From: Escherichia coli
GTDB taxonomy: Bacteria; Pseudomonadota; Gammaproteobacteria; Enterobacterales; Enterobacteriaceae
Direction: 5' to 3' (one strand)
Length of the DNA: 64,000 nt
NCBI RefSeq assembly: GCF_003790525.1
Contig: NZ_CP033636.1
In this document: positions 4,630 through 62,322 of the stretch, piece by piece
Numbering within the stretch: position 1 is the first letter of the stretch
Layout: each line of letters opens with the position of its first letter
Notes under the pieces: model-generated
What the model was told of the DNA's origin: nothing
The model's database searches: none
Seen by the model: only the letters and a program-made list of their open reading frames with translations
Position numbers and translations under genes: made by a program

Positions 4630-5133
4630 TTATTGATAGTGTTTTATGTTCAGATAATGCCCGATGACTTTGTCATGCAGCTCCACCGATTTTGAGAACG
4701 ACAGCGACTTCCGTCCCAGCCGTGCCAGGTGCTGCCTCAGATTCAGGTTATGCCGCTCAATTCGCTGCGTATATCGCTTGCTGATTACGTGCAGCTTTCC
4801 CTTCAGGCGGGATTCATACAGCGGCCAGCCATCCGTCATCCATATCACCACGTCAAAGGGTGACAGCAGGCTCATAAGACGCCCCAGCGTCGCCATAGTG
4901 CGTTCACCGAATACGTGCGCAACAACCGTCTTCCGGAGCCTGTCATACGCGTAAAACAGCCAGCGCTGGCGCGATTTAGCCCCGACGTATCCCCACTGTT
5001 CGTCCATTTCCGCGCAGACGATGACGTCACTGCCCGGCTGTATGCGCGAGGTTACCGACTGCGGCCTGAGTTTTTTAAGTGACGTAAAATCGTGTTGAGG
5101 CCAACGCCCATAATGCGGGCTGTTGCCCGGCAT
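4630..5133 (-). CDS. insB: IS1 InsB
   Basis: 167-aa [61 protein letters not shown]... Confidence 0.9.
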
Positions 5134-5327
5134 CCAACGCCATTCATGGCCATATCAATGATTTTCTGGTGCGTACCGGGTTGAGAAGCGGTGTAAGTGA
5201 ACTGCAGTTGCCATGTTTTACGGCAGTGAGAGCAGAGATAGCGCTGATGTCCGGCGGTGCTTTTGCCGTTACGCACCACCCCGTCAGTAGCTGAACAGGA
5301 GGGACAGCTGATAGAAACAGAAGCCAC
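5052..5327 (-). CDS. insA: IS1 InsA
   Basis: 91-aa [46 protein letters not shown]... Confidence 0.9.
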
Positions 5328-5382
5328 TGGAGCACCTCAAAAACACCATCATACACTAAATCAGTAAGTTGGCAGCATCACC

Positions 5383-5561
5383 CGACGCACTTTGCGCCGA
5401 ATAAATACCTGTGACGGAAGATCACTTCGCAGAATAAATAAATCCTGGTGTCCCTGTTGATACCGGGAAGCCCTGGGCCAACTTTTGGCGAAAATGAGAC
5501 GTTGATCGGCACGTAAGAGGTTCCAACTTTCACCATAATGAAATAAGATCACTACCGGGCG
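5383..5561. promoter_or_regulatory. Tn9 catA1 upstream/promoter remnant (cat gene itself absent)
   Basis: ...ACGTAAGAGGTTCCAACTTTCACCATAATGAAATAAGATCACTACCGGGCG matches the region between IS1 and cat in Tn9/pACYC184-type sequences; ends at the IS10 junction. Confidence 0.6.
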
Positions 5562-6120
5562 CTGAGAGATCCCCTCATAATTTCCCCAAAGCGTAACCAT
5601 GTGTGAATAAATTTTGAGCTAGTAGGGTTGCAGCCACGAGTAAGTCTTCCCTTGTTATTGTGTAGCCAGAATGCCGCAAAACTTCCATGCCTAAGCGAAC
5701 TGTTGAGAGTACGTTTCGATTTCTGACTGTGTTAGCCTGGAAGTGCTTGTCCCAACCTTGTTTCTGAGCATGAACGCCCGCAAGCCAACATGTTAGTTGA
5801 AGCATCAGGGCGATTAGCAGCATGATATCAAAACGCTCTGAGCTGCTCGTTCGGCTATGGCGTAGGCCTAGTCCGTAGGCAGGACTTTTCAAGTCTCGGA
5901 AGGTTTCTTCAATCTGCATTCGCTTCGAATAGATATTAACAAGTTGTTTGGGTGTTCGAATTTCAACAGGTAAGTTAGTTGCTAGAACCCATGGCTCCTT
6001 TGCCGACGCTGAGTAGATTTTAGGTGACGGGTGGTGACAATGAGTCCGTGTCGAGCGCTGATTTTTTCGGCCTTTAGAGCGAGATTTATACAATAGAATT
6101 TGGCATGAGATTGGATTGCT
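5562..6120 (-). mobile_element. IS10 fragment (inside end plus 3' part of transposase gene), truncated by IS26
   Basis: CTGAGAGATCCCCTCATAATTTCCCC end; 172-aa ORF 5575-6093 matches IS10 transposase C-terminus (...EETFRDLKSPAYGLGLRHSRTSSSERFDIMLLIALML...). Confidence 0.8.
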
Positions 6121-6940
6121 GGCACTGTTGCAAAGTTAGCGATGAGGCAGCCTTTTGTCTTATTCAAAGGCCTTACATTTCAAAAACTCTGCTTACCAGG
6201 CGCATTTCGCCCAGGGGATCACCATAATAAAATGCTGAGGCCTGGCCTTTGCGTAGTGCACGCATCACCTCAATACCTTTGATGGTGGCGTAAGCCGTCT
6301 TCATGGATTTAAATCCCAGCGTGGCGCCGATTATCCGTTTCAGTTTGCCATGATCGCATTCAATCACGTTGTTCCGGTACTTAATCTGTCGGTGTTCAAC
6401 GTCAGACGGGCACCGGCCTTCGCGTTTGAGCAGAGCAAGCGCGCGACCATAGGCGGGCGCTTTATCCGTGTTGATGAATCGCGGGATCTGCCACTTCTTC
6501 ACGTTGTTGAGGATTTTACCCAGAAACCGGTATGCAGCTTTGCTGTTACGACGGGAGGAGAGATAAAAATCGACAGTGCGGCCCCGGCTGTCGACGGCCC
6601 GGTACAGATACGCCCAGCGGCCATTGACCTTCACGTAGGTTTCATCCATGTGCCACGGGCAAAGATCGGAAGGGTTACGCCAGTACCAGCGCAGCCGTTT
6701 TTCCATTTCAGGCGCATAACGCTGAACCCAGCGGTAAATCGTGGAGTGATCGACATTCACTCCGCGTTCAGCCAGCATCTCCTGCAGCTCACGGTAACTG
6801 ATGCCGTATTTGCAGTACCAGCGTACGGCCCACAGAATGATGTCACGCTGAAAATGCCGGCCTTTGAATGGGTTCATGTGCAGCTCCATCAGCAAAAGGG
6901 GATGATAAGTTTATCACCACCGACTATTTGCAACAGTGCC
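6121..6940 (-). mobile_element. IS26 copy 1 (820 bp)
   Basis: 14-bp terminal IRs GGCACTGTTGCAAA / TTTGCAACAGTGCC at exact 820-bp spacing; flanks ggattgct / acttgacc (no target duplication). Confidence 0.95.
6173..6877 (-). CDS. tnpA: IS26 transposase Tnp26 (IS6 family), G184 reference form
   Basis: 234-aa [35 protein letters not shown]... with ...[10 protein letters not shown]... Confidence 0.95.
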   Translation of the reverse strand: MNPFKGRHFQRDIILWAVRWYCKYGISYRELQEMLAERGVNVDHSTIYRWVQRYAPEMEKRLRWYWRNPSDLCPWHMDETYVKVNGRWAYLYRAVDSRGRTVDFYLSSRRNSKAAYRFLGKILNNVKKWQIPRFINTDKAPAYGRALALLKREGRCPSDVEHRQIKYRNNVIECDHGKLKRIIGATLGFKSMKTAYATIKGIEVMRALRKGQASAFYYGDPLGEMRLVSRVFEM

Positions 6941-6984
6941 ACTTGACCTGATAGTTTGGCTGTGAGCAATTATGTGCTTAGTGC
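6941..6984 (-). other. First ~44 bp of class 1 integron 3'-conserved segment, truncated by IS26
   Basis: Reverse complement GCACTAAGCACATAATTGCTCACAGCCAAACTATCAGGTCAAGT follows a GTTAGAT cassette boundary (6985-6991). Confidence 0.6.
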
Positions 6985-7029
6985 ATCTAACGTCAAAATC
7001 AGCGGCGCGTTTTTATGCGTCCGCTGGAT

Positions 7030-7851
7030 TTACTTGTTGTGCGGCGTCGCAGACTCATTGAACAACCTTTTTGCCTGCGCAATTACAGTTCTCGGAAGCT
7101 CGATATTCAGAGGTTCTGTCACGCTCTTGAACAATTCGAGACTCCACGTCCACGTTTGATGATAGGCTGCACATAGTGCTCTTGGTTCTGCACTGCTTGT
7201 GCATGCCAGATAGCGATTATACGAGTCCTCCGAGATATCCTTTTCGAGCGCGCGTGAAGGTGTCGGCCAGTGGTCTGTTGCCCCTTCGTGGAGTCGAACC
7301 AGCTTGAGTAGGTTTTCATGTGCTTTGCTGAGCAAAGCCCAGGCGCGAGCGTACTCTCCCCGATTTAAAAGATTGGCCCCAAAGAGCATCAGGCTGATGA
7401 GGTTCAACACAAGCCCTTCCACCAGCGGCGCGCCTTCACGTATCGGGGGACCGCCCACGAGAGCGCTTGCGTACCTTGACAACTCTCCTGATCGGTCCAA
7501 CAAAACAGCCGCCTCAAGCGAGGGAAACCACCCATAGCCTTGCCAAGTGGAAATGACCGGTATGTCCGATTTTCGCATGAAATGGAATTCACCGCGAATG
7601 CCGTTTTCAAAAAGTGCGGTGTGGTGGCCGAAGTCGTCCGGAAAGTAAGCAGCAACCGGACTTACGGCATTAAGCCACGAGCGCTGATCGAAATTTTCAA
7701 AATGGTCATCCTGGATGAACACTGCGAATTCGATATCAGAGAACTCGTCACCCTCTCCGATAGCAAATGAGCCGAACATCAATGCCGCGATTATTCGTGC
7801 ATCCTCATGACAACCTTCCTTGAAGAGTTCGATCATTTTCAGTTGAAGCAT
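7030..7851 (-). CDS. lnu(F): lincosamide nucleotidyltransferase Lnu(F) (gene cassette 2 of integron 1)
   Basis: 273-aa MLQLKMIELFKEGCHEDARIIAALMFGSFAIGEGDEFSDIEFAVFIQDD...; cassette context after aadA2 attC. Confidence 0.85.
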   Translation of the reverse strand: MLQLKMIELFKEGCHEDARIIAALMFGSFAIGEGDEFSDIEFAVFIQDDHFENFDQRSWLNAVSPVAAYFPDDFGHHTALFENGIRGEFHFMRKSDIPVISTWQGYGWFPSLEAAVLLDRSGELSRYASALVGGPPIREGAPLVEGLVLNLISLMLFGANLLNRGEYARAWALLSKAHENLLKLVRLHEGATDHWPTPSRALEKDISEDSYNRYLACTSSAEPRALCAAYHQTWTWSLELFKSVTEPLNIELPRTVIAQAKRLFNESATPHNK

Positions 7852-7923
7852 AGAAATATCCTTTTATTGAAGCCACAGATTATGAGGAAAGGTATACGCA
7901 GATTTTTGTTTTTTTTCGTCAGC

Positions 7924-7983
7924 ACAACGCCGGAGTTAAGCCGCCGCGCGTAGCGCGGTCGGCTTGAACGAATTGTTAGACAT
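7924..7983 (-). other. attC (59-be) of aadA2 cassette
   Basis: Reverse complement GTCTAACAATTCGTTCAAGCCGACCGCGCTACGCGCGGCGGCTTAACTCCGGCGTT, imperfect palindrome typical of aadA attC. Confidence 0.6.
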
Positions 7984-8774
7984 TATTTGCCGATTACCTT
8001 GGTGATCTCGCCTTTCACGTAGTGGACAAATTCTTCCAACTGATCTGCGCGCGAGGCCAAGCGATCTTCTTCTTGTCCAAGATAAGCCTGTCTAGCTTCA
8101 AGTATGACGGGCTGATACTGGGCCGGCAGGCGCTCCATTGCCCAGTCGGCAGCGACATCCTTCGGCGCGATTTTGCCGGTTACTGCGCTGTACCAAATGC
8201 GGGACAACGTAAGCACTACATTTCGCTCATCGCCAGCCCAGTCGGGCGGCGAGTTCCATAGCGTTAAGGTTTCATTTAGCGCCTCAAATAGATCCTGTTC
8301 AGGAACCGGATCAAAGAGTTCCTCCGCCGCTGGACCTACCAAGGCAACGCTATGTTCTCTTGCTTTTGTCAGCAAGATAGCCAGATCAATGTCGATCGTG
8401 GCTGGCTCGAAGATACCTGCAAGAATGTCATTGCGCTGCCATTCTCCAAATTGCAGTTCGCGCTTAGCTGGATAACGCCACGGAATGATGTCGTCGTGCA
8501 CAACAATGGTGACTTCTACAGCGCGGAGAATCTCGCTCTCTCCAGGGGAAGCCGAAGTTTCCAAAAGGTCGTTGATCAAAGCTCGCCGCGTTGTTTCATC
8601 AAGCCTTACGGTCACCGTAACCAGCAAATCAATATCGCTGTATGGCTTCAGGCCGCCATCCACTGCGGAGCCGTACAAATGCACGGCCAGCAACGTTGAT
8701 TCCAGATGGCGCTCAATGACGCTTAGCACCTCTGATAGTTGGTTCGAAATTTCGATGGTCACCGCTACCCTCAT
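7983..8774 (-). CDS. aadA2: aminoglycoside (3'') adenylyltransferase AadA2 (streptomycin/spectinomycin), cassette 1 of integron 1
   Basis: MRVAVTIEISNQLSEVLSVIERHLESTLLAVHLYGSAVDGGLKPYSDIDLLVTVTVRLDE...; start chosen at internal ATG of longer ORF that reads through attI1. Confidence 0.9.
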   Translation of the reverse strand: MRVAVTIEISNQLSEVLSVIERHLESTLLAVHLYGSAVDGGLKPYSDIDLLVTVTVRLDETTRRALINDLLETSASPGESEILRAVEVTIVVHDDIIPWRYPAKRELQFGEWQRNDILAGIFEPATIDIDLAILLTKAREHSVALVGPAAEELFDPVPEQDLFEALNETLTLWNSPPDWAGDERNVVLTLSRIWYSAVTGKIAPKDVAADWAMERLPAQYQPVILEARQAYLGQEEDRLASRADQLEEFVHYVKGEITKVIGK

Positions 8775-8922
8775 GATGTCTAACTTTGTTTTAGGGCGAC
8801 TGCCCTGCTGCGTAACATCGTTGCTGCTCCATAACATCAAACATCGACCCACGGCGTAACGCGCTTGCTGCTTGGATGCCCGAGGCATAGACTGTACCCC
8901 AAAAAAACAGTCATAACAAGCC
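8775..8922. other. attI1 recombination region of integron 1 (approximate)
   Basis: Lies between intI1 start (8923) and first cassette; contains the ORF-11-like leader translated as ...PRASKQQARYAVGRCLMLWSSNDVTQQGSRPKTKL. Confidence 0.55.
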
Positions 8923-9720
8923 ATGAAAACCGCCACTGCGCCGTTACCACCGCTGCGTTCGGTCAAGGTTCTGGACCAGTTGCGTGAGCGCATACGCTAC
9001 TTGCATTACAGCTTACGAACCGAACAGGCTTATGTCCACTGGGTTCGTGCCTTCATCCGTTTCCACGGTGTGCGTCACCCGGCAACCTTGGGCAGCAGCG
9101 AAGTCGAGGCATTTCTGTCCTGGCTGGCGAACGAGCGCAAGGTTTCGGTCTCCACGCATCGTCAGGCATTGGCGGCCTTGCTGTTCTTCTACGGCAAGGT
9201 GCTGTGCACGGATCTGCCCTGGCTTCAGGAGATCGGAAGACCTCGGCCGTCGCGGCGCTTGCCGGTGGTGCTGACCCCGGATGAAGTGGTTCGCATCCTC
9301 GGTTTTCTGGAAGGCGAGCATCGTTTGTTCGCCCAGCTTCTGTATGGAACGGGCATGCGGATCAGTGAGGGTTTGCAACTGCGGGTCAAGGATCTGGATT
9401 TCGATCACGGCACGATCATCGTGCGGGAGGGCAAGGGCTCCAAGGATCGGGCCTTGATGTTACCCGAGAGCTTGGCACCCAGCCTGCGCGAGCAGCTGTC
9501 GCGTGCACGGGCATGGTGGCTGAAGGACCAGGCCGAGGGCCGCAGCGGCGTTGCGCTTCCCGACGCCCTTGAGCGGAAGTATCCGCGCGCCGGGCATTCC
9601 TGGCCGTGGTTCTGGGTTTTTGCGCAGCACACGCATTCGACCGATCCACGGAGCGGTGTCGTGCGTCGCCATCACATGTATGACCAGACCTTTCAGCGCG
9701 CCTTCAAACGTGCCGTAGAA
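8923..9720 (+). pseudogene. intI1: class 1 integron integrase intI1, 3'-truncated by IS26 (about 266 of 337 codons retained)
   Basis: [44 protein letters not shown]... reading frame runs into IS26 IR at 9721. Confidence 0.9.
9010..9038 (-). promoter_or_regulatory. Pc cassette promoter, weak PcW configuration (-35 TGGACA, 17-bp spacer, -10 TAAGCT)
   Basis: Reverse strand reads TGGACATAAGCCTGTTCGGTTCGTAAGCT inside intI1 5' region. Confidence 0.6.
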
Positions 9721-10976: not shown

Positions 10977-12193
<1,217 letters not shown>

Positions 12194-15630: not shown

Positions 15631-16450
15631 GGCACTGTTGCAAATAGTCGGTGGTGATAAACTTATCATCCCCTTTTGCTGATGGAGCTGCACATGAACC
15701 CATTCAAAGGCCGGCATTTTCAGCGTGACATCATTCTGTGGGCCGTACGCTGGTACTGCAAATACGGCATCAGTTACCGTGAGCTGCAGGAGATGCTGGC
15801 TGAACGCGGAGTGAATGTCGATCACTCCACGATTTACCGCTGGGTTCAGCGTTATGCGCCTGAAATGGAAAAACGGCTGCGCTGGTACTGGCGTAACCCT
15901 TCCGATCTTTGCCCGTGGCACATGGATGAAACCTACGTGAAGGTCAATGGCCGCTGGGCGTATCTGTACCGGGCCGTCGACAGCCGGGGCCGCACTGTCG
16001 ATTTTTATCTCTCCTCCCGTCGTAACAGCAAAGCTGCATACCGGTTTCTGGGTAAAATCCTCAACAACGTGAAGAAGTGGCAGATCCCACGATTCATCAA
16101 CACGGATAAAGCGCCCGCCTATGGTCGCGCGCTTGCTCTGCTCAAACGCGAAGGCCGGTGCCCGTCTGACGTTGAACACCGACAGATTAAGTACCGGAAC
16201 AACGTGATTGAATGCGATCATGGCAAACTGAAACGGATAATCAACGCCACGCTGGGATTTAAATCCATGAAGACGGCTTACGCCACCATCAAAGGTATTG
16301 AGGTGATGCGTGCACTACGCAAAGGCCAGGCCTCAGCATTTTATTATGGTGATCCCCTGGGCGAAATGCGCCTGGTAAGCAGAGTTTTTGAAATGTAAGG
16401 CCTTTGAATAAGACAAAAGGCTGCCTCATCGCTAACTTTGCAACAGTGCC
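15631..16450 (+). mobile_element. IS26 copy 4 (820 bp), G184N variant type, flanked by 8-bp direct repeat CTTCTGGT
   Basis: Exact IS26 IRs; 15623-15630 and 16451-16458 both CTTCTGGT (target site duplication of a simple insertion). Confidence 0.95.
15694..16398 (+). CDS. tnpA: IS26 transposase, G184N variant
   Basis: ...[15 protein letters not shown]... Confidence 0.9.
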   Translation: MNPFKGRHFQRDIILWAVRWYCKYGISYRELQEMLAERGVNVDHSTIYRWVQRYAPEMEKRLRWYWRNPSDLCPWHMDETYVKVNGRWAYLYRAVDSRGRTVDFYLSSRRNSKAAYRFLGKILNNVKKWQIPRFINTDKAPAYGRALALLKREGRCPSDVEHRQIKYRNNVIECDHGKLKRIINATLGFKSMKTAYATIKGIEVMRALRKGQASAFYYGDPLGEMRLVSRVFEM

Positions 16451-32088: not shown

Positions 32089-32126
32089 GGGGAGCCCGCA
32101 GAATTCGGAAAAAATCGTACGCTAAG
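32089..32126 (+). repeat. Tn1721 38-bp terminal inverted repeat
   Basis: GGGGAGCCCGCAGAATTCGGAAAAAATCGTACGCTAAG. Confidence 0.9.
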
Positions 32127-33942
32127 GTTTTCCGGGCATCCGTAAGGGCCGAAACTTCCCGTCTTCCAGTCTGCGGCTCTGCCGCCAGACGTAATCGCCG
32201 GTTAGGTTGATGTGCTCCCAGCCCAGCGGCGACAGGAATTGCAGCAGCTCGCCGTCCACCGGCTTGCCGGCCTCGACCAACCCCTGGGTGGCGCGTTCCA
32301 GGTACACCGTGTTCCACAGCACGATAGCCGCCGTCACCAGGTTGAGGCCGCTGGCCCGGTAGCGCTGCTGCTCGAAGCTCCGATCCCTGATTTCCCCAAG
32401 GCGGTTGAAGAACACCGCCCTGGCCAGCGAGTTGCGCGCCTCACCTTTGTTCAGGCCGGCATGCACGCGGCGGCGCAGTTCAACACTTTGCAGCCAGTCC
32501 AGGATGAACAGCGTGCGCTCGATCCGGCCCAGCTCGCGCAGGGCCACGGCCAGTCCGTTCTGGCGCGGGTAGCTGCCGAGCTTGCGCAGCATCAGCGAGG
32601 CGGTGACGGTGCCCTGCTTGATCGAGCTGGCCAGGCGCAGGATGTCGTCCCAGTGGGCACGCACGTGCTTGATGTTCAGGGTGCCGCCGATCAGCGGGCG
32701 CAACGTCGGGTAGGCTTGCACGCCCTGCGGCACGTACAGCTTGGTTTCGCCGAGGTCGCGGATGCGCGGCGCGAAGCGGAAGCCTAGCAGGTGCATCAGG
32801 GCAAAGACGTGATCGGTGAAGCCGGCCGTGTCGGTGTAGTGCTCCTCGATCCGCAGGTCGGACTCGTGGTACAGCAGGCCGTCGAGCACATAGGTGGAAT
32901 CGCGGACGCCGACATTCACCACGCGGGTGCTGAACGGCGCGTACTGGTCGGAGATATGGGTATAGAACAGCCGTCCCGGCTCGCTACCGTACTTCGGGTT
33001 GACGTGCCCGGTGCTCTCGCCCCGGCCACCCGCGCGGAAGCGCTGGCCATCGGAGGATGAGGTCGTGCCGTCGCCCCAGTGGGCGGCAAAGGCGTGGCGA
33101 TACTGGTGGTTGACCAGCTCGGCCAAGGCCGCCGAATAGGTTTCGTCGCGGATGTGCCAGGCTTGCAGCCAGGACAGCTTGGCGTAGGTCAGGCCGGGGC
33201 TCGACTCGGCCATCTTGGTCAGCCCGAGGTTGATCGCATCACCGAGGATTGCGGACAGCAGCAACGTCCTGTCTTTGGCCTCGGCCCCGTCCTTCAAGTG
33301 GGTGAAGTGGCGGCTGAAGCCCGTCCAGTCGTCCACGTCCATCAGCAGTTCGGTGATCTTGATGCGCGGCAGTAACTGGCTGGTTTGGTCGATCAGCGCC
33401 TGCGCCCGATCCGGCACCGCCGCATCCAGCGGGGTGATTTTCAGCCCTGACTCGGTGAGGATGGCATCGGGCAGCTCGTTGTCCTTGGCCAGGCGGGTGA
33501 CGGTGGCCAACTGCTCGTCCAGCAGCTGCAAACGCTCTTCCAGGTACTGGTCGCTGTTCGGGTTGATCGCCAGGGGCAGGGCCTGCTCGCGCTTGAGTGC
33601 GGCGAACTTCTCGGCCGGCAGCAGGTAGTCGTCGAAGTCGCGGAACTGCCGCGAGCCCTTGACCCAGATGTCGCCGGAGCGCAGGGCGTTCTTCAGCTCG
33701 GACAGGGCGCAGATTTCGTAGAATTTCCGGTCGAGGCCTTCCGGGGTGATCACCAGCGGCTTCCAGCGCGGCTTGATGAAGGCCGTGGGTGCATCGGCCG
33801 GCACCTTGCGCAGGTTGTCGGCGTTCATCTCACGCAGGGTCTGCACGGCTGCCAGCACGCCTTGCGCGGCCGGCCCGTGCTGTTCCCCAACTTTTCGCTC
33901 GGCGAAGAGTATGAACATGCGCCGCCGGCGACGAATCGCCAA
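32122..33942 (-). pseudogene. tnpA: Tn1721 truncated transposase gene (tnpA', C-terminal ~585 codons)
   Basis: ...[74 protein letters not shown]... to ...[36 protein letters not shown]; N-terminal half absent. Confidence 0.85.
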
Positions 33943-37278: not shown

Positions 37279-37669
37279 TCAGGACCGCTGCCGGAGCGCA
37301 ACCCACTCACTACAGCAGAGCCATGTAGACAACATCCCCTCCCCCTTTCCACCGCGTCAGACGCCCGTAGCAGCCCGCTACGGGCTTTTTCATGCCCTGC
37401 CCTAGCGTCCAAGCCTCACGGCCGCGCTCGGCCTCTCTGGCGGCCTTCTGGCGCTCCTGCTGCGGCGTCCGCTCGTGGGCCGTGGCGCGGGTCCGCGCGC
37501 CGGCCTCGTGCGCCTGGCGCTCGCGGGCGAGGTCCAGGGCGGCCGTCTTCACGTTCTGCCTTGCGCAGATGAGATAGGAGAGCATGAAAAACCTCGGGGC
37601 AGCCATCGAATGATGCCATCTACAGGGGTTAAAATAACCACCATCATTTCATAACAATACCTGCTGACT

Positions 37670-38260
37670 ATGAAGATCTACGTCATCAAAATAGCAGTTC
37701 ATGGAGTCAGTCCGATGGTCTGGCGTCGGCTGAGAATTGCTGCCGACACGTCACTGGCCGCGCTTCACTTCATTTTCCAGATAGTGCAGGGCTGGGGGGA
37801 CGACCATCTCCATCAATTTCACATTTATGGCAAAGATTACGGTATCTCCTACGAAGGAGGCATCGGTTTTGTCGATAATCCGTTCCGGGTCGTGATTGAT
37901 GATTTTGCTTTTGATGCTGGCGATCGCTTTACCTATGAATACAATTTCTTTGAGCACTGGCTTCATGACATTCGTGTTGAGGCCATTTATGAAAACTCTA
38001 CGCTGAAAGCGCCGTTTTGTATAAGCGGCCATGGTATGCCCGGAGCCACAGCTGCGGATGAGTTCGATAAAACCCTGGCGTTTCTTGAAGCTATCGTTAA
38101 TGCGGATGATGAAACAACGGTCGGCGAGATCCGCCCTTTTGCTGACGACCTGGATGCTGTCAGGTTCAACCGCCACAAAATCAACCGGCAACTGAGCAGG
38201 CTCGACCTTGCATCTCCGGTACTGGAGCCTGAAGTTATCTGGCTGGGCCGTCGTCGCTGA
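37670..38260 (+). CDS. plasmid pRiA4b ORF-3-like protein
   Basis: MKIYVIKIAVHGVSPMVWRRLRIAADTSLAALHFIFQIVQGWGDDHLHQF... matches the remembered IYQLKITL...PIWRR...LH..IQ...GW...HLH.F signature. Confidence 0.55.
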   Translation: MKIYVIKIAVHGVSPMVWRRLRIAADTSLAALHFIFQIVQGWGDDHLHQFHIYGKDYGISYEGGIGFVDNPFRVVIDDFAFDAGDRFTYEYNFFEHWLHDIRVEAIYENSTLKAPFCISGHGMPGATAADEFDKTLAFLEAIVNADDETTVGEIRPFADDLDAVRFNRHKINRQLSRLDLASPVLEPEVIWLGRRR

Positions 38261-38396
38261 CTGATGTCTATAAAGGTATACGTTTTCAGCATGCCTCTCA
38301 GATCCCCGAAAAAATGTCTATAAACCTCCCTAAATCAGTGTTTATGGATTATTCTTTAAATCTCTATGATGTTTAAAGACCTTCCGGAGGTTTTGC

Positions 38397-38969
38397 GTGC
38401 AATATGCCTACATCAGGGTAAGCTCGGCCGATCAGAATACGGCCCGTCAGGAAGAGGCATTGTCAAAGGCGGGTTTTCAGCCTGATAAAATTTGTGTTGA
38501 GCATGCCAGCGCGAAGGACACAAACCGCCCGGGGTTACAGGAACTCCTGGGGCAATTACGCCCTGGTGATACGCTTCTGGTTCATTCCATCGATCGCCTT
38601 TGCCGGAATATGTCGGATATGTGCGCTGTCACCACCCGGCTTCGTGACCAGGGCGTTACCCTTATTTTTCTGAAAGAGCAGCTGACGTTCAGCGCCGGCA
38701 CAAACAATCCGATGCAGGAACTGCAGCTGCACATGATGTCGGCATTCAGCCAGTTTGAACGAGCCTTACTGAAGGAAAGGCAGGCCGACGGCATCGCCGC
38801 GAAAAAAGCACGGGGTGAAAAAACAGGGCGCCCCGGCGCCGATATCAAAAAGATCCAGGAAATTGACGCACTCAGAAGCAGAGGGGTCAGGCTCAGGATC
38901 GCCTGCGACCATGCGGGCCTTGGCGTTTCCACATATTATAAGCTTCGTCACCAGATGAACAACCAGTAG
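38397..38969 (+). CDS. serine recombinase / resolvase
   Basis: MQYAYIRVSSADQNTARQEEALSKAGFQPDKICVEHASAKDTNRPGLQELLGQLRPGDTLLVHSIDRLCR...; upstream direct repeats ATGTCTATAAA x2 (res-like). Confidence 0.8.
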   Translation: MQYAYIRVSSADQNTARQEEALSKAGFQPDKICVEHASAKDTNRPGLQELLGQLRPGDTLLVHSIDRLCRNMSDMCAVTTRLRDQGVTLIFLKEQLTFSAGTNNPMQELQLHMMSAFSQFERALLKERQADGIAAKKARGEKTGRPGADIKKIQEIDALRSRGVRLRIACDHAGLGVSTYYKLRHQMNNQ

Positions 38970-39002
38970 CCGGGAGATAGTCATCCACCACAGCAGGAGG
39001 CA

Positions 39003-40397
39003 ATGATGCAACTGACGCTCCAGATAGTCATCACCGATGAATCAGGCTCCAGTCGAACGGAGGAACTGATGACAATCCAGAAATCAGGGGAGACCCGGAA
39101 CGACATCGGATTATCGGTGTCAGAATCCAAGCTGTTGCTGAATACGGTCCAGCAGTCGGTGGTCCAGCTGCAGGCAGACGAATATACTCAACACCATATC
39201 CGGTGCCCTCACTGCCTTGCTGCGCGCAGAATCAAAGGCAAACAGAAAATACGGTACCGGACGCTGTTTGGCGTTATTCCGGTATCCGGGCTTCGGGTGT
39301 ACCGGTGCCGTTGTGAAGAGAGTGATACAAAGACAGTCAGTTTGCTCAGCGACTGGGCCGGCGATTATTCTCACCCGGCACTGAAATATATTGAAACCCG
39401 CTGGGCCTCGATGATCTCCTATGAAATGACGACTCGTCTGCTGAAAGATATTCTGCCGGTGGGCCACAGCCTGAATGCCTCAACGGTGAGGAATCATTTA
39501 TGCCAGGTGGCGCAGCGTCTTGACGCTGAGGCTGAAGCTCATTCAGGTTTTCTTTCCGGCTGCCCCCGCGACTGGGGGAACCTGCCCAGGCCAGGAAAAC
39601 CGCTTGTGGTGGGTATAGATGGTGGTTATGTTCGCGATCGGGATGACAAAAAGCGTAATTTTGAAATTATTGCCGGGAAGTCTTTTTCCGTTGGTGCGCC
39701 TGCTGACACCCGCCGCTTCGGTTTTGTTCAGAAGGATGACTGTCATCCGGAACGCAGGCTCATGACCCACCTTTCAGCGCAGGGAATGCAGGCCAACCAG
39801 CAGATATTTTTTCTGTCCGACGGCGCGGATAATCTCAGGGACCTCCAGTTCGGTATGTACCCTGAGTCAACGCATGTGCTGGACTGGTTTCATATCACCA
39901 TGAGGCTGAAGGTGCTCATGCAATATGCCCGGGGACTGCTGGTATCAGATCCAGAGGCGGGGAGTAAAGTTCTGGCACTGCTGGAAAGCATTAAACGATA
40001 TCTCTGGCATGGCAATGTTGTCGCTGCGCTGGAACATATTGATAATTGCGTTATGTATTGCGATGACCCTGAACTCAGCTATCCTAGCCTGAAATCCCTG
40101 CAAAAACATCTGGATGAAATGTATACCTACATCCGGAATAATAAGATGATGATCCCAAACTACGGCGAAATGCGTCGGTACGGAGAGCCGGTATCAACCG
40201 CGTTTGTGGAATCCACGATCAATGAAGTGATCGCCAGACGAATGGCCAAAAAGCAGCAGATGCAGTGGAGCAGAAAAGGGGCTCATTATTTGTTACAGAC
40301 CCGGACCGCCGTTTTGAATAACGAACTGCAGGATAAATTTGTCTGCTGGTATCCGGGTTTTCAAAGTGACGGGAAGGGACCAGCGATGGCAGCATAG
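39003..40397 (+). CDS. DDE transposase, ISKra4-family-like (possibly ISKpn19-like element)
   Basis: 464-aa protein with CPHC...C.C zinc-finger-like N-terminal segment and large catalytic domain; family assignment from memory, unverified. Confidence 0.5.
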   Translation: MMQLTLQIVITDESGSSRTEELMTIQKSGETRNDIGLSVSESKLLLNTVQQSVVQLQADEYTQHHIRCPHCLAARRIKGKQKIRYRTLFGVIPVSGLRVYRCRCEESDTKTVSLLSDWAGDYSHPALKYIETRWASMISYEMTTRLLKDILPVGHSLNASTVRNHLCQVAQRLDAEAEAHSGFLSGCPRDWGNLPRPGKPLVVGIDGGYVRDRDDKKRNFEIIAGKSFSVGAPADTRRFGFVQKDDCHPERRLMTHLSAQGMQANQQIFFLSDGADNLRDLQFGMYPESTHVLDWFHITMRLKVLMQYARGLLVSDPEAGSKVLALLESIKRYLWHGNVVAALEHIDNCVMYCDDPELSYPSLKSLQKHLDEMYTYIRNNKMMIPNYGEMRRYGEPVSTAFVESTINEVIARRMAKKQQMQWSRKGAHYLLQTRTAVLNNELQDKFVCWYPGFQSDGKGPAMAA

Positions 40398-40420
40398 CTC
40401 ACGCTGCCCCAATATTTTTT

Positions 40421-40858
40421 ATGCTCTCGGTCGTATGGAAGCTGGACCGCCTCGGTCGTGATCTTCGTCATCTCATTAATACAGTGCACGACCTGACCGC
40501 GAGGGGGACCGGTCTGAAAGTGCTGACCGGTCACGGGGCGACTATCGACACAACAACGGCCGCTGGCAAGCTTGTCTTCGGTATCTTTGCCGCACTGGCG
40601 GAGTTTGAGCGCGAACTGATTGCTGAAAGAACGACTGCAGGTCTGGCATCAGCAAGAGCCCGTGGGCGGAACGGCGGCCGACCTTATAAAATGACGCCAG
40701 TCAAACTGCGACTGGCAATGGCATCAATGGGACAATCAGAAACAAAGGTCAGTACGCTATGCCAGGAACTTGGGATAACCCGGCAAACTTTGTACAGGCA
40801 TATTTCCCCTGTTGGTCAACTGCGGGCGGACGGGATCAAGCTGCTCAACCGTGGATAA
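40421..40858 (+). pseudogene. tnpR: Tn3-family resolvase gene fragment (C-terminal two-thirds)
   Basis: Begins at ...[67 protein letters not shown]...; lacks N-terminal catalytic serine region. Confidence 0.7.
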
Positions 40859-40908
40859 TTTGAACGGACGGAAAAATCTGGGGTTCCGGCGTAGTACCCC
40901 TATCACCT

Positions 40909-40928
40909 CCACATTTTTGCAACAGTGC
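40909..40928 (+). repeat. orphan IS6-family (IS26-like) terminal repeat
   Basis: CACATTTTTGCAACAGTGCC, ending in the exact 14-bp IS26 IR TTTGCAACAGTGCC with diverged subterminal sequence; no adjacent IS body. Confidence 0.4.
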
Positions 40929-41176
40929 CTTATAAATGGCAGCCTTATGTTTACTTGCCAAGATGGGCTACCATATGATGTTTTATACTGAGCAATATTA
41001 ATATTATCTTTAATGGAAAAATTAAGCCCACTAAGTGACCCACTGCTATATGGCTCTATTGTGAAGACGCCTGAGGGTAAAAATTTATACATGGTTGTCC
41101 CTATGTCTATTATTGCAAGGTTGACAATATTATTCGTTTTATAAATTTGAGCGTTTAAAATCACACATCAAAGCAA

Positions 41177-41833
41177 TTAGTCAGGATAAACAACAATACC
41201 CAGTGCTTCGAGAATCAGTTCTTGCTGCCAGGCTGCAATTTTGATACCTGATGTATCGACTTTGCGGGGATCTAAACCGTCGAGTTCGGCGTGGCATAAA
41301 TTGGCACCCTGTAGGCTAAATTGCCCCCAGACATCTTCGGAAAAAACACCTCGACTTAAGTCTGACTCTTTCAGTGATGCACCCGCTAGGTTCGTTCCTA
41401 TCCAGCGATTTTCAAACAACTCACATTTTTCTAAACAAACCCTCTCCATATTGGCATAGGAAAGATTACATCCAGAAATAAATGCTGAGCAAAAGTACAT
41501 ACGATTACTCACTTGATGGGCAAAGTTTGTTCGGGAAAAGTTGGCACCTTTTAAATCACACGCACGGAACTCTATACCGTAGCAATTGGCATTACTGAAG
41601 TTTGCCATCGCAAGTTGGCATTGTTGGAAACTTGCATCACGAAGATCTGCGACATCAAAGTGGCAGCCTTCGATATCACCCTGTTCAATGAACTTGCAGT
41701 TGACGAATGTCGTATCACGCAAGTTAGCACGTCGAAAGTCGCTGCGAATGAATGTGCAAGCGGTGAAGGTGAGATCACTTAAGTCTTTATGTGAAAAGTT
41801 GTGGTGCCGATATGTATGATTGTAGGTTTCCAT
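41177..41833 (-). CDS. qnrS1: pentapeptide-repeat quinolone resistance protein QnrS1
   Basis: 218-aa METYNHTYRHHNFSHKDLSDLTFTACTFIRSDFRRANLRDTTFVNCKFIEQGDIEGCHFDVADLRDASFQQC... Confidence 0.95.
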   Translation of the reverse strand: METYNHTYRHHNFSHKDLSDLTFTACTFIRSDFRRANLRDTTFVNCKFIEQGDIEGCHFDVADLRDASFQQCQLAMANFSNANCYGIEFRACDLKGANFSRTNFAHQVSNRMYFCSAFISGCNLSYANMERVCLEKCELFENRWIGTNLAGASLKESDLSRGVFSEDVWGQFSLQGANLCHAELDGLDPRKVDTSGIKIAAWQQELILEALGIVVYPD

Positions 41834-42136
41834 GAGTACTCCTTGTTGAAAGGAGGGCTAGACTACCATTATACATATGCCAAGACATTAAAATAAAAGC
41901 CTGTTACATCAACACATTACAACCCCTCAATTTACCTGTTTTAAGTGGTCAAATTGGCGCGTAGAGCGCCTATCGCTCTTGCATTGGCACGCGGCCCTGT
42001 TGAAAAAAGTTATTCGCTTTAGATAGGGTTAGGAGAGCCGTGCTTCGCCGGTAAAAAATCGGACTATCCGACGCAGGGCGGACTCATCGGCGGAGAAGCA
42101 AACTTTGACTATATCTCCCTACACTTGGAAGAGGGC

Positions 42137-42847
42137 TAGACTGGCCCCATAGATCACCAGACACTTCGACTCTCTTAAAATAAGAGGTAGTCTTGGAACT
42201 ATGTTTAATACCAGTCAGAACGATAAGATGGTTGAAGTGTTATCAGGACCTGAGCGGCGTCGGCGTCGTACACCGCAGGAAAAAATTGCCATTATTCAGC
42301 AGACTATGGAGCCCGGTATGACCGTGTCTCATGTCGCGCGCCTGCATGGCATCAATGCAAACCAGATATTCAAATGGCGCAAGCAATATTAAGACGGTTC
42401 ACTGACGGCTGTTGCATCGGGCGAGGAAGTGGTGCCGGCCTCCGAACTCGCTGCCGCCAATAAGCAAATTCGCGAACTCCAGCGCCTTCTGGGCAAAAAG
42501 ACGATGGAAGCCGAGATACTCAAAGAGGCCGTGGAGTTCGGCCGGGCAAAAAAATGGATTGCGCATGCGCCCTCGTTGCCTGGGAACGACGAATAAGCGA
42601 CGTTTGCAGAAGTCTTAGCGTGTCGCGTGCGCAGTTGAGCATTCGGGTTCACCGGCCATCTGACTGACAGGATCGCAGACGGCAGCCCCGTTCTGACGAT
42701 ACCACCGTATTGTCCCGGATAAACATGGCGGTGGCTGACCTGCCGACGTATGGTTATCGCCGTGTGTGGGCGCTGCTGCGACGGGAGTCGGAGCGGGACG
42801 GCCTGCCTGTGGTTAATGCAAAGCGGGTGTATCGCATTATGAGAACG
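42137..42847 (+). mobile_element. IS3-family (IS2-group, ISEcl2-like) element fragment: left IR, orfA and 5' part of orfB, truncated by IS26
   Basis: Begins TAGACTGGCCCC...; orfA 42201-42392 [63 protein letters not shown]; downstream frames continue IS2-like OrfB. Confidence 0.7.
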
Positions 42848-43667
42848 GGCACTGTTGCAAATAGTCGGTGGTGATAAACTTATCATCCCCTTTTGCTGAT
42901 GGAGCTGCACATGAACCCATTCAAAGGCCGGCATTTTCAGCGTGACATCATTCTGTGGGCCGTACGCTGGTACTGCAAATACGGCATCAGTTACCGTGAG
43001 CTGCAGGAGATGCTGGCTGAACGCGGAGTGAATGTCGATCACTCCACGATTTACCGCTGGGTTCAGCGTTATGCGCCTGAAATGGAAAAACGGCTGCGCT
43101 GGTACTGGCGTAACCCTTCCGATCTTTGCCCGTGGCACATGGATGAAACCTACGTGAAGGTCAATGGCCGCTGGGCGTATCTGTACCGGGCCGTCGACAG
43201 CCGGGGCCGCACTGTCGATTTTTATCTCTCCTCCCGTCGTAACAGCAAAGCTGCATACCGGTTTCTGGGTAAAATCCTCAACAACGTGAAGAAGTGGCAG
43301 ATCCCGCGATTCATCAACACGGATAAAGCGCCCGCCTATGGTCGCGCGCTTGCTCTGCTCAAACGCGAAGGCCGGTGCCCGTCTGACGTTGAACACCGAC
43401 AGATTAAGTACCGGAACAACATGATTGAATGCGATCATGGCAAACTGAAACGGATAATCGGCGCCACGCTGGGATTTAAATCCATGAAGACGGCTTACGC
43501 CACCATCAAAGGTATTGAGGTGATGCGTGCACTACGCAAAGGCCAGGCCTCAGCATTTTATTATGGTGATCCCCTGGGCGAAATGCGCCTGGTAAGCAGA
43601 GTTTTTGAAATGTAAGGCCTTTGAATAAGACAAAAGGCTGCCTCATCGCTAACTTTGCAACAGTGCC
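42848..43667 (+). mobile_element. IS26 copy 5 (820 bp), V171M transposase variant
   Basis: Exact IS26 IRs; flanks tgagaacg / cactagtg. Confidence 0.95.
42911..43615 (+). CDS. tnpA: IS26 transposase, V171M ([10 protein letters not shown]), G184 form
   Basis: Single substitution relative to copies 1, 2, 6. Confidence 0.9.
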
Positions 43668-55547: not shown

Positions 55548-56366
55548 GGCACTGTTGCAAATAACCACGAATGGTAAGCTGAAGACTGTTTTAGCTAAAG
55601 GTGCAGCATATGAATCCTTTCCATGGTCGGCATTTTCAGGGCGAAATCATTCTTTGGGCTGTGCGCTGGTATTGTAAATATGGCATTAGCTATCGTGAAC
55701 TGCAGGAAATGCTGGCCGAACGGGGTGTGAATGTTGATCACACGACTATTTACCGTTGGGTTCAACGTTATGCTCCTGAAATAGAAAAACGTTTACGCTG
55801 GTATTGGCGTAATCCTACAGATCTGAGCTCGTGGCATATTGATGAAACCTATGTAAAAGTGAATGGACGATGGTCTTATCTGTATCGTGCAGTCGATCAA
55901 CGTGGCGATACCATTGATTTTTATCTTTCTTCTAGACGTAATACCAAATCAGCATATTGTTTTCTTGGAAAAATTTTAAATAATGTGAAGAAGTGGCAAA
56001 TTCCACAAGTGATCAACACGGATAAAGCACCCACATATGGACGTGCTTTATCACGGTTAAAACGGGAAGGTAAATGTCCACCAGACCTTGAGCACAGGCA
56101 GATTAAGTATAAAAATAACGTGATTGAATGTGATCATGGCAAGCTAAAGCGGATCATCAGGGCCACATTAGGATTCAAATCTATGAAGACGGCTTATGCC
56201 ACAATTAAAGGTATTGAAGTCATGCGTGCACTACGTAAAGGACAAGCATCGTCATTTTATTATGGTCAGCCTCAGGGTGAAGTGTGTCTAATCAACAGGG
56301 TTTTCGGTCTCTAAGTACTTTTTAAAGGGAACATCATCGACTCAAATCTCTATTTGCAACAGTGCC
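55548..56366 (+). mobile_element. IS6-family element, IS1006/IS1008-like (819 bp), sharing the IS26 14-bp terminal repeat
   Basis: Ends GGCACTGTTGCAAATAACC... / ...TTTGCAACAGTGCC; internal sequence and transposase clearly diverged from IS26. Confidence 0.8.
55610..56314 (+). CDS. tnpA: IS1006-like transposase (IS6 family)
   Basis: [105 protein letters not shown]... Confidence 0.85.
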   Translation: MNPFHGRHFQGEIILWAVRWYCKYGISYRELQEMLAERGVNVDHTTIYRWVQRYAPEIEKRLRWYWRNPTDLSSWHIDETYVKVNGRWSYLYRAVDQRGDTIDFYLSSRRNTKSAYCFLGKILNNVKKWQIPQVINTDKAPTYGRALSRLKREGKCPPDLEHRQIKYKNNVIECDHGKLKRIIRATLGFKSMKTAYATIKGIEVMRALRKGQASSFYYGQPQGEVCLINRVFGL

Positions 56367-61502: not shown

Positions 61503-62322
61503 GGCACTGTTGCAAATAGTCGGTGGTGATAAACTTATCATCCCCTTTTGCTGATGGAGCTGCACATGAACCCATTCAAAGGCCGGCATTTTCAGCGTGA
61601 CATCATTCTGTGGGCCGTACGCTGGTACTGCAAATACGGCATCAGTTACCGTGAGCTGCAGGAGATGCTGGCTGAACGCGGAGTGAATGTCGATCACTCC
61701 ACGATTTACCGCTGGGTTCAGCGTTATGCGCCTGAAATGGAAAAACGGCTGCGCTGGTACTGGCGTAACCCTTCCGATCTTTGCCCGTGGCACATGGATG
61801 AAACCTACGTGAAGGTCAATGGCCGCTGGGCGTATCTGTACCGGGCCGTCGACAGCCGGGGCCGCACTGTCGATTTTTATCTCTCCTCCCGTCGTAACAG
61901 CAAAGCTGCATACCGGTTTCTGGGTAAAATCCTCAACAACGTGAAGAAGTGGCAGATCCCACGATTCATCAACACGGATAAAGCGCCCGCCTATGGTCGC
62001 GCGCTTGCTCTGCTCAAACGCGAAGGCCGGTGCCCGTCTGACGTTGAACACCGACAGATTAAGTACCGGAACAACGTGATTGAATGCGATCATGGCAAAC
62101 TGAAACGGATAATCAACGCCACGCTGGGATTTAAATCCATGAAGACGGCTTACGCCACCATCAAAGGTATTGAGGTGATGCGTGCACTACGCAAAGGCCA
62201 GGCCTCAGCATTTTATTATGGTGATCCCCTGGGCGAAATGCGCCTGGTAAGCAGAGTTTTTGAAATGTAAGGCCTTTGAATAAGACAAAAGGCTGCCTCA
62301 TCGCTAACTTTGCAACAGTGCC
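61503..62322 (+). mobile_element. IS26 copy 7 (820 bp), G184N variant type
   Basis: Exact IS26 IRs; flanks ggcgaagc / aatcttcc. Confidence 0.95.
61566..62270 (+). CDS. tnpA: IS26 transposase, G184N variant
   Basis: ...[15 protein letters not shown]... Confidence 0.9.
   Translation: MNPFKGRHFQRDIILWAVRWYCKYGISYRELQEMLAERGVNVDHSTIYRWVQRYAPEMEKRLRWYWRNPSDLCPWHMDETYVKVNGRWAYLYRAVDSRGRTVDFYLSSRRNSKAAYRFLGKILNNVKKWQIPRFINTDKAPAYGRALALLKREGRCPSDVEHRQIKYRNNVIECDHGKLKRIINATLGFKSMKTAYATIKGIEVMRALRKGQASAFYYGDPLGEMRLVSRVFEM

What the first reader, a model, noticed from the sequence alone, without database searches (positions are those of the whole stretch)
40859..40928. Orphan IS26-family terminal repeat between the truncated resolvase gene and qnrS1
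CACATTTTTGCAACAGTGCC ends in the exact 14-bp IS26 IR but the preceding bases differ from IS26, and no IS body is attached. It may be the footprint of an IS6-family element that once delivered qnrS1, or a cryptic site that IS26 can still recognise.
Basis: seen in the sequence. Interest (0 to 1): 0.4.

Follow-up and report, generated by a model that had tools for sequence, protein, structure and literature searches.

The report
Dead end-piece of an IS26 relative
The flagged stretch next to the quinolone-resistance gene qnrS1 is two transposon scars side by side: the end of a Tn3-type transposon and a 29-base leftover of an IS26-like insertion sequence that marks exactly where Vibrio-derived DNA begins. 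It is a useful historical marker but an inert, ordinary relic.

Summary
One unpaired 14-bp IS26-type terminal repeat lies at 40916-40929, one base beyond the reported end.

The flagged interval holds two things:
- **40863-40900:** the complete 38-bp right inverted repeat of a ~3.9-kb Tn3-family transposon (tnpA-res-tnpR). It starts 4 bp after the tnpR stop codon.
- **40901-40929:** a 29-bp fragment identical (29/29) to the transposase-proximal end of an 819-bp IS26 relative, here called "ISX". ISX is 90% nt and 95% aa identical to IS26, and intact copies occur in Serratia marcescens assemblies. IS26 itself matches only 24/29.

The outer base of the fragment is exactly where homology to Vibrio mytili-type chromosomal qnrS loci stops, inside the neighbouring amidase gene. 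About 1,860 plasmids carry the junction at ≥99% identity.

So an IS26-family element was joined to the qnrS1 segment early, and a Tn3-family transposition event then cut it. Whether ISX made the first capture is unresolved, because a Tn3-family tnpA fragment bounds the other side.

I found no sign that IS26 uses the site. Ordinary relic, modest interest.

The parts
37572..40428 (+). ISKpn19 (ISKra4 family, 2857 bp, with its pRiA4b-ORF3, recombinase and transposase genes). It truncates tnpR at its 5' end.
   Evidence: 99.9% identical over 2857 bp to the ISKpn19 copy in L012, in the opposite orientation. Annotation of the same element in L001 and L012.
40429..40858 (+). Truncated tnpR (resolvase). 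It corresponds to nt 186-615 of a 615-nt gene encoding 204 aa, from a ~3.9-kb Tn3-family transposon.
   Evidence: ORF 40421-40858. Full-length 204-aa homologues. Intact copy in IncX3 plasmid L012 at 8343-8957 with the same downstream sequence. Complete related transposons L008 and L016.
40863..40900 (-). 38-bp right terminal inverted repeat (IRR) of the Tn3-family transposon. Outer end (GGGG) at 40900. Sequence: GGGGTACTACGCCGGAACCCCAGATTTTTCCGTCCGTT.
   Evidence: The first ~33 nt are near-identical (one T/A difference at position 6) to IRL and IRR of complete relatives L016 and IRL of L008. Homology in unrelated plasmids L004 and L006 ends exactly at CCCC. Single copy in the window.
40901..40929 (-). 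29-bp relic of the transposase-proximal end of an IS26 relative ('ISX'): GGCACTGTTGCAAAAATGTGGAGGTGATA. The 14-bp terminal repeat is 40916-40929, with the outer end at 40929.
   Evidence: 29/29 to intact 819-bp elements in L020/L101-L106 (Serratia marcescens assemblies) and L021. 28/29 to a S. liquefaciens plasmid element, 27/29 to the L018/L005 relative, 24/29 to IS26.
40930..41092 (-). 5' part (about 54 codons, frameshifted) of a Vibrionaceae amidase gene, cut by the IS end.
   Evidence: Alignment to L097, where the amidase gene is at 5742-6974. Homology ends at 40930. Intact amidase next to a qnrS variant in L107.
41177..41833 (-). qnrS1
   Evidence: ORF. Annotated as QnrS1 in matching plasmids.
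40930..42045 (.). Vibrionaceae-derived segment (1116 bp), 93.4-93.6% identical to V. mytili-type chromosomal loci.
   Evidence: blastn to L022, L097, L100 and L107. Both ends are sharp.
42046..42136 (.). 91-bp internal fragment of a different Tn3-family tnpA.
   Evidence: 96.6% identical to L107 5229-5317, inside a tnpA pseudogene with 66% aa identity to window ORF 32122-33942. In PLSDB its distribution closely tracks the qnrS1 context: 1967 records, 1943 at >=99% identity.
42137..42847 (+). Truncated IS2-like IS3-family element (ISEcl2 of the literature). Its left repeat starts at 42137 and it is cut by IS26.
   Evidence: Sequence TAGACTGGCCCC... followed by an orfA-like ORF at 42201-42392. 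The name comes from PMC5027574. The resemblance of the IR to IS2 is from memory.
42848..43667 (+). Complete IS26 (820 bp), a later insertion.
   Evidence: Paired 14-bp repeats and Tnp26 ORF.

Best explanation
The interval holds two abutting transposon ends. Bases 40901-40929 are the last 29 bp of the transposase-proximal end of an IS26 relative, here called ISX. ISX is 819 bp, about 90% nt and 94.9% transposase aa identical to IS26.

Shown: the 29 bp are identical to intact ISX copies. Their inner, broken end is joined to the outermost base of the Tn3-family repeat. Their outer end is joined to Vibrionaceae chromosomal-type DNA inside the amidase gene downstream of qnrS1. This triple junction is fixed in about 1,860 plasmids.

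Inferred order of events: (1) ISX became joined to the amidase gene beside qnrS1 by its own transposition (insertion, cointegrate formation or adjacent deletion). This happened either in the Vibrionaceae source or on an earlier mobile element. (2) A Tn3-type transposition event joined the right end of the tnpR transposon to ISX position 30. The event was either insertion into ISX or an intramolecular event that deleted the rest of ISX. It destroyed the IS. (3) ISKpn19, ISEcl2 and IS26 arrived later.

Today the 29 bp are an inert scar with no partner end and no transposase. I put ISX as the first agent that took qnrS1 out of the chromosome at about 35-40%. In the other scenario it is a secondary arrival that trimmed an already mobile segment.
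For: - The 14-mer is far above chance, and only this copy is unpaired.
- 29/29 identity to intact 819-bp elements found by a 25-mer scan of metagenome contigs. The same element is present in three S. marcescens assemblies.
- Graded matches to relatives: 28/29, 27/29 and 24/29.
- The Tn3-family repeat is identified by complete relatives with tnpA, tnpR and matching IRL/IRR. Unrelated plasmids lose homology exactly at CCCC.
- The Vibrio homology ends exactly at 40929|40930.
- The junction is at >=99% identity in 1859 PLSDB records, and in 8 of 10 distinct QnrS1 contexts from a separate collection. The other 2 are shorter, not longer.
- The amidase 3' part is absent from PLSDB apart from a Photobacterium replicon and one Edwardsiella plasmid carrying a different qnrS allele.
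Against: - The reciprocal junction (IRL of the transposon joined to the rest of ISX with a 5-bp duplication) was not found. So insertion and deletion cannot be told apart.
- No sequence shows intact ISX next to qnrS1 or next to a Vibrio amidase gene.
- ISX was seen only in Serratia and one unassigned metagenome contig, not in Vibrionaceae.
- The other boundary of the Vibrio segment carries a Tn3-family tnpA fragment. That fragment offers an alternative first mobiliser.
- The closest chromosomal loci are only ~93.5% identical, so the true source genome has not been sampled.
Confidence: 0.85

Rival explanations
1. ISX was a late arrival, not the deliverer. A Tn3-family element first captured qnrS plus amidase from a Vibrionaceae chromosome, as seen on Edwardsiella ictaluri pEI-2234-3. 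ISX later inserted into, or deleted up to, the amidase gene on a plasmid.
For: - Window 42046-42136 is 96.6% identical to an internal part of the tnpA pseudogene that abuts Vibrio DNA upstream of a qnrS variant in L107.
- There, 38-bp Tn3-type repeats (L107 4690-4727 and 8369-8406) bracket delta-tnpA, qnrS and an intact amidase.
- The qnrS1 arrangement equals the L107 arrangement minus 551 bp.
Against: - The qnrS regions of the two contexts are only 93.6% identical, so they are not products of one recent capture.
- No record shows the qnrS1 allele with an intact amidase or with the L107-type repeats.
Confidence: 0.4
2. The repeat is a live, cryptic site. Tnp26 from the IS26 copies on the plasmid recognises it, either as a target for conservative cointegration or as one end of a large composite unit.
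For: The 14-bp repeat is identical to that of IS26. Purified Tnp26 binds DNA carrying the 14-bp repeat (PMC8477213).
Against: - Every listed top-ranked plasmid record was a two-piece match. A continuous junction of IS26's transposase-proximal end with 40930 would have scored higher, so none appears to exist. The other IS26 end was not tested.
- The two nearby IS26 insertions I read lie elsewhere: inside tnpR in L002 and 36 bp to the right in L015. In 76-77 further records, match spans imply varied distances.
- The targeted reaction required extended identity and failed with 16 shared bp (PMC7885326).
- There is no partner end in the right orientation nearby.
Confidence: 0.04
3. It is a decayed remnant of IS26 itself, with point mutations inside the repeat.
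For: The 14-bp repeat is identical, and 24 of 29 bases match IS26.
Against: - Five of the 15 subterminal bases differ from IS26.
- All 29 bases match another natural element exactly.
- The seven IS26 copies in the window differ from each other at no more than 4 positions in 820.
- The 29 bp are invariant across all 14 other fetched loci that carry them.
Confidence: 0.03
4. It is one arm of a miniature element or mobile insertion cassette bracketing qnrS1, as described for qnrS2.
For: qnrS2 is reported inside a cassette with 22-bp inverted repeats.
Against: - No second copy of the repeat lies on the other side of qnrS1 at up to 1 mismatch.
- The other boundary is a tnpA fragment followed by ISEcl2.
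- The 29 bp belong to a full-length IS elsewhere.
Confidence: 0.02

Closest known systems
IS26 (IS6/IS26 family, 820 bp)
   Same: Identical 14-bp terminal repeat. The relic aligns with the transposase-proximal end, including the GGTGATA subterminal block. The parent element has the same size and layout, and its transposase is 94.9% identical.
   Different: Only 24/29 bases match, and the parent element is about 90% identical in DNA. Here there is only a 29-bp fragment with no transposase gene and no second end.
Unnamed IS26 relatives in Serratia and Klebsiella plasmids (L020/L101-L106 S. marcescens, L108 S. liquefaciens, L018 K. variicola, L005 E. coli)
   Same: The S. marcescens element matches 29/29. 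The others match 28/29 and 27/29, and all share the GCAAAAAT..AGGTGATA end.
   Different: These are complete or differently truncated copies, unlinked to qnrS1. I could not check whether they carry an ISfinder name.
Tn6292, the qnrS1-carrying 'Tn3-family unit transposon' proposed in PMC5027574
   Same: Same DNA: ISKpn19, tnpR, qnrS1, delta-ISEcl2 and IS26.
   Different: That model places qnrS1 inside the transposon, between tnpR and a distant IRR. Here a complete 38-bp IRR lies 4 bp after tnpR, followed by the IS relic. So qnrS1 lies outside the tnpA-res-tnpR module. I could not retrieve the paper's records to inspect its IRR.
qnrS2 mobile insertion cassette, and TIME-COMPs carrying qnrS1 (PMC13367494)
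   Same: Short repeat-bounded, non-autonomous structures associated with qnrS genes.
   Different: Those have two repeats and flanking target duplications. This is a single IS end fragment.
Tn3-derived qnrS element on Edwardsiella ictaluri pEI-2234-3 (NZ_CP053782.1)
   Same: Same Vibrionaceae gene neighbourhood (qnrS followed by amidase), and the same tnpA sequence upstream of qnrS.
   Different: It carries a different qnrS allele (93.6% nt over the segment), an intact amidase, no ISX relic, and its own 38-bp repeats.

Membership tests
IS26 family (IS6-family clade) element end | 14-bp terminal repeat GGCACTGTTGCAAA | tested here: met
   Exact match at 40916-40929 on the - strand. 17 matches in the window against 0.04 expected.
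IS26 family (IS6-family clade) element end | Subterminal sequence continuous with a known family member | tested here: met
   29/29 to intact 819-bp elements L020 and L021. 28/29, 27/29 and 24/29 to other members.
IS26 family (IS6-family clade) complete element | Second inverted terminal repeat about 820 bp away, enclosing a DDE transposase gene | tested here: not met
   No partner repeat and no transposase ORF. The neighbouring DNA is a Tn3-family repeat and tnpR. It is a fragment, not an element.
IS26 family (IS6-family clade) complete element | 8-bp target-site duplication | not testable with these tools
   The other end of the IS is absent from every sequence examined.
IS26 itself | Sequence identity with IS26 beyond the 14-bp repeat | tested here: not met
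   5 mismatches in the 15 subterminal bases.
Tn3-family transposon terminal repeat (40863-40900) | About 38-bp terminal repeat beginning GGGG, matching the repeat at the tnpA end of complete copies | tested here: met
   Matches IRL and IRR of L016 and IRL of L008 over the first ~33 nt, with one T/A difference at position 6.
Tn3-family transposon terminal repeat (40863-40900) | Linked tnpA (DDE_Tnp_Tn3), res and serine resolvase genes | tested here: inconclusive
   The window keeps only a truncated tnpR. tnpR is intact with 180 bp of tnpA in IncX3 plasmids, and the full module is present in relatives L008 and L016. No copy of this exact transposon with intact tnpA was found.
Tn3-family transposon terminal repeat (40863-40900) | 5-bp target duplication flanking both repeats | not testable with these tools
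   The IRL of this copy was not found in any record.
Mobile insertion cassette / MITE | Two inverted repeats bracketing the cargo, with flanking direct repeats | tested here: not met
   Only one arm is present. The other boundary is unrelated.
IS26 targeted-conservative reaction site | Extended sequence identity with the incoming IS at the reacting end | tested here: not met
   Only 14 contiguous bases are shared with IS26. The published requirement exceeds 16 bp (PMC7885326). No natural IS26 junction at 40930 appeared among listed hits for the transposase-proximal end.

The most novel reading that the evidence does not exclude
The 29-bp relic preserves the original capture junction of qnrS1. 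In this reading an IS26-family element, rather than ISEcl2 or a Tn3-family transposon, inserted into the amidase gene of a Vibrio mytili-like chromosome and carried qnrS1 into the plasmid pool in a single event. All of today's qnrS1 contexts would descend from that event. This would give an exact sequence tag (ISX end plus amidase position) for hunting the still-unsampled source species.
Probability: 0.35. Interest if true: 0.5.

Novelty: new member of a known kind. Interest (0 to 1): 0.33.

Why it matters
qnrS1 is among the most widespread transferable quinolone-resistance genes. Reviews state that its exact source and its mobilising element are unknown (PMC3270319).

This analysis contributes four points:
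- It defines the Vibrionaceae-derived segment to the base, 40930-42045.
- One boundary is the end of an IS26 relative that was later cut by a Tn3-family transposon.
- The other boundary is a tnpA fragment shared with a qnrS-bearing element in a fish pathogen.
- All sampled qnrS1 contexts share these junctions, which implies one ancestral assembly.

It also suggests that the published 'Tn6292' model needs revising. In practice the relic is inert. It changes how this region should be annotated, not how resistance spreads.

Tried and rejected
- **Chance match:** rejected.
- **Mutated IS26:** rejected by 29/29 to another element against 24/29 to IS26.
- **Origin from the 819-bp IS26-family element at 55548-56366:** rejected, its ends do not match.
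- **IS26 targeting of the site:** I inspected plasmids with IS26 nearby. L002 has it inside tnpR and L015 has it 36 bp to the right. I then queried an artificial junction of the IS26 transposase-proximal end with the 40930 flank, and only two-piece matches were listed. The other IS26 end was not queried.
- **Reciprocal junction (IRL joined to the rest of the IS):** searched with a chimeric query. No contiguous hit.
- **Intact ISX next to qnrS1:** none found.
- **Scan of 100,044 species-representative genomes for the 24-mer:** zero hits.
- **ISX in PLSDB:** the best match is only 92%.
- **pIMP-HZ1 and pP378-IMP, to inspect the Tn6292 repeats:** KX711879 (the paper's pP378-IMP accession) and KU886034 (my recalled accession for pIMP-HZ1) are not in the collections.
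- **Literature:** searches found no description of this relic. Key subscription papers (Partridge 2018, Poirel 2007, Strahilevitz 2009) are not held, so prior description cannot be excluded.
- **Mistaken lead:** I first guessed the 91-bp piece was ISCR-like. Translation showed it is Tn3-family tnpA.

Full report
**1. The observation**

The sequence CACATTTTTGCAACAGTGCC lies at 40910-40929. The IS26-type 14-mer GGCACTGTTGCAAA is on the minus strand at 40916-40929, so the finding's end coordinate is one base short. The 14-mer occurs 17 times in the window against 0.04 expected from shuffles. Sixteen of these are the paired ends of eight elements. Seven are IS26, differing from each other at no more than 4 of 820 positions. 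One, at 55548-56366, is a different 819-bp family member only 75% identical to IS26. The seventeenth has no partner and no transposase gene.

**2. What the flagged 70 bases contain**

A blastn of 40859-40929 against 72,556 plasmids gave 1857 records covering at least 80% of the 71-base query, and 1859 records at ≥99% identity. It also gave hundreds of partial hits covering only query positions ~9-45 in unrelated plasmids. In an E. coli IncF plasmid (L004) and a Pantoea plasmid (L006), that homology ends exactly at ...GGCGTAGAACCCC. In Pantoea it is preceded by a resolvase 3' end like the one here.

The truncated resolvase belongs to a family of 204-aa proteins. Complete relatives were recovered:
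- In Salmonella contig L008, a 1009-aa Tn3-type tnpA is divergent from tnpR.
- In K. pneumoniae plasmid L016, tnpA and tnpR are bounded by GGGGTTCTACGCCGGAACCCCAGATTTTTCCGTC... at both ends.

Window 40863-40900 is therefore the complete 38-bp right inverted repeat of a ~3.9-kb Tn3-family transposon (IRL-tnpA-res-tnpR-IRR). It starts 4 bp after the tnpR stop, and its outer GGGG is at 40900. In this window ISKpn19 (37572-40428) has removed the first 185 nt of tnpR. In IncX3 OXA-181-type plasmids tnpR is intact, with the same downstream sequence.

**3. The remaining 29 bases**

Bases 40901-40929 read, from the outside in, GGCACTGTTGCAAAAATGTGGAGGTGATA. They align with the transposase-proximal end of IS26 (GGCACTGTTGCAAATAGTCGGTGGTGATA) at 24 of 29 positions. 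A truncated IS26 relative on an E. coli IncY plasmid (L005) and an intact copy on a K. variicola plasmid (L018) match 27/29.

An exact 25-mer scan of metagenome contigs was designed to exclude the qnrS1 context. It returned two contigs, each with an intact 819-bp element whose end is 29/29 identical. One of them is an NCBI Serratia marcescens assembly. Its 234-aa transposase is WP_046899122.1, and the element sits at the same locus in three S. marcescens assemblies. This element, here called ISX, is 90% nt and 94.9% aa identical to IS26. A S. liquefaciens plasmid relative matches 28/29.

No other ISX-specific sequence exists in the window or in any qnrS1 locus fetched. PLSDB holds no ISX copy above 92% identity.

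**4. What lies on the other side**

A peptide-pattern scan of species-representative genomes with QnrS1 gave 75 Vibrionaceae and related loci. The best is Vibrio mytili CAIM 528, at 97% aa and 93.4% nt, but its contig ends early. The same protein on a 64.5-kb metagenome contig (L097) has the full flank.

Homology to the window runs from 42045 down to 40930 and stops exactly at the outer base of the IS repeat. The window reads ...GCCATTTATAA|GGCACTGT, and the Vibrio type reads ...GCCATTTATAA|TGCCTTGT. The break is about 54 codons into the amidase gene that follows qnrS in Vibrionaceae.

So the IS end is joined directly to chromosomal-type DNA. This is the signature of an IS-mediated event: insertion, cointegrate formation or adjacent deletion.

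**5. How old the junction is**

- The triple junction (IRR, 29 bp, amidase) is at ≥99% identity in 1859 PLSDB records.
- Of ten distinct QnrS1 contexts drawn from a separate collection, eight keep it. Two are truncated closer to qnrS1. None extends further into the amidase gene.
- The amidase 3' part is absent from PLSDB, apart from a Photobacterium replicon and one Edwardsiella ictaluri plasmid with a different qnrS allele.

The junction therefore predates the diversification of the qnrS1 contexts sampled here.

**6. Mechanism**

The broken inner end of the IS fragment meets the outermost base of a transposon repeat. Such precision is expected only from a reaction catalysed at the Tn3-family end. 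Two reactions fit: insertion of the transposon into ISX at position 29/30, or intramolecular transposition that deleted everything between the transposon and that position. I could not tell these apart. The IRL of this transposon copy, and with it the reciprocal junction and any 5-bp duplication, was not found. This step is inferred.

**7. Did ISX deliver qnrS1?**

This claim is weaker.
- The upstream limit of Vibrio homology is sharp at 42045/42046 in three species.
- The next 91 bp (42046-42136) are 96.6% identical to an internal part of a Tn3-family tnpA pseudogene on E. ictaluri plasmid pEI-2234-3 (L107).
- On that plasmid, 38-bp Tn3-type repeats bracket delta-tnpA, a qnrS variant and an intact amidase gene.
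- The qnrS1 arrangement equals that one minus 551 bp.

A Tn3-family element is therefore a credible alternative first mobiliser, with ISX arriving later. Against a shared recent capture, the two qnrS segments are only 93.6% identical. I rate ISX as first mobiliser at 35-40%.

**8. Is the site still used by IS26?**

I found no evidence for it.
- The two IS26 insertions I read lie elsewhere: inside tnpR (L002) and 36 bp to the right (L015). In 76-77 further records the match spans imply varied distances.
- An artificial junction of the IS26 transposase-proximal end with 40930 returned only two-piece matches among the listed top hits.
- Harmer and Hall showed that the targeted conservative reaction needs identical transposases and extended identity. 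It did not occur at ends sharing only 16 bp (PMC7885326). Here 14 bp are shared.
- Tnp26 does bind the 14-bp repeat in vitro (PMC8477213), so binding without a productive reaction remains possible.

**9. Comparison with the literature**

PMC5027574 proposed 'Tn6292', with qnrS1 as cargo between tnpR and a distant IRR. The complete IRR directly after tnpR, followed by an IS relic, argues that the tnpA-res-tnpR module ends at 40900 and that qnrS1 lies outside it. I could not fetch the records behind that model. No searchable paper describes the relic. Several relevant reviews are not held, so prior description cannot be excluded.

**10. Verdict**

This is an ordinary, inert IS relic, precisely characterised. 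It has modest value as a historical marker for how qnrS1 was assembled.

Noticed in passing
window 42046-42136; L107 (NZ_CP053782.1) 4690-8406: The 91 bp between the Vibrio-derived DNA and ISEcl2 are a fragment of a Tn3-family tnpA. The same tnpA (96.6% identical) sits upstream of a qnrS variant on Edwardsiella ictaluri IncC plasmid pEI-2234-3. There, 38-bp repeats (GGGGTCACACGACAATTCGGAAAATATTGTATGCTAAG) bracket a 3.7-kb non-autonomous unit made of delta-tnpA, qnrS and an intact amidase.
   Followed up: partly
window 55548-56366: An 819-bp IS26-family element with the same 14-bp terminal repeats but only 75% identity to IS26. It is a different family member, name not determined. The window therefore holds seven IS26 copies plus this relative, not eight IS26.
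   Followed up: partly
window 10977-11796, 15631-16450, 61503-62322: Three IS26 copies share four substitutions relative to the copy at 42848, including GG->AA at positions 613-614. From memory, this may be the G184N 'enhanced activity' IS26 variant. The copy at 15631-16450 is flanked by an 8-bp direct repeat, CTTCTGGT.
   Followed up: no
L008 10628-10715; L010 1168-1262: In Salmonella and colicin-plasmid relatives of the tnpR transposon, the right inverted repeat is split by an insertion of about 65 bp between ...GGAAAAATCT and CCGGCGTAGAACCCC.
   Followed up: no
window 37572-40428 versus L012 5150-8006: ISKpn19 occupies different positions and opposite orientations relative to tnpR in the two main context types. 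In this window it cuts tnpR at nt 185. In IncX3 OXA-181-type plasmids it cuts tnpA, leaving tnpR intact.
   Followed up: partly
window 40930-41092: Compared with the Vibrio-type locus, the amidase remnant carries a 12-bp deletion and a 1-bp deletion that causes a frameshift. The 135-codon ORF listed at 40757-41164 (- strand) is a read-through artefact that crosses the IS relic and the Tn3 repeat.
   Followed up: no
L022, L097, L100 (Vibrio mytili-type qnrS loci): The closest chromosomal relatives of the qnrS1 segment are V. mytili-type loci at 93.4-93.6% nt identity (97% aa). That is much closer than the V. splendidus genes cited in reviews (about 84% aa), but not close enough to be the direct source.
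   Followed up: partly
PMC5027574 versus window 40863-40900: The published Tn6292 model treats qnrS1 as cargo of a Tn3-family unit transposon. The complete IRR 4 bp after tnpR contradicts that layout.
   Followed up: partly
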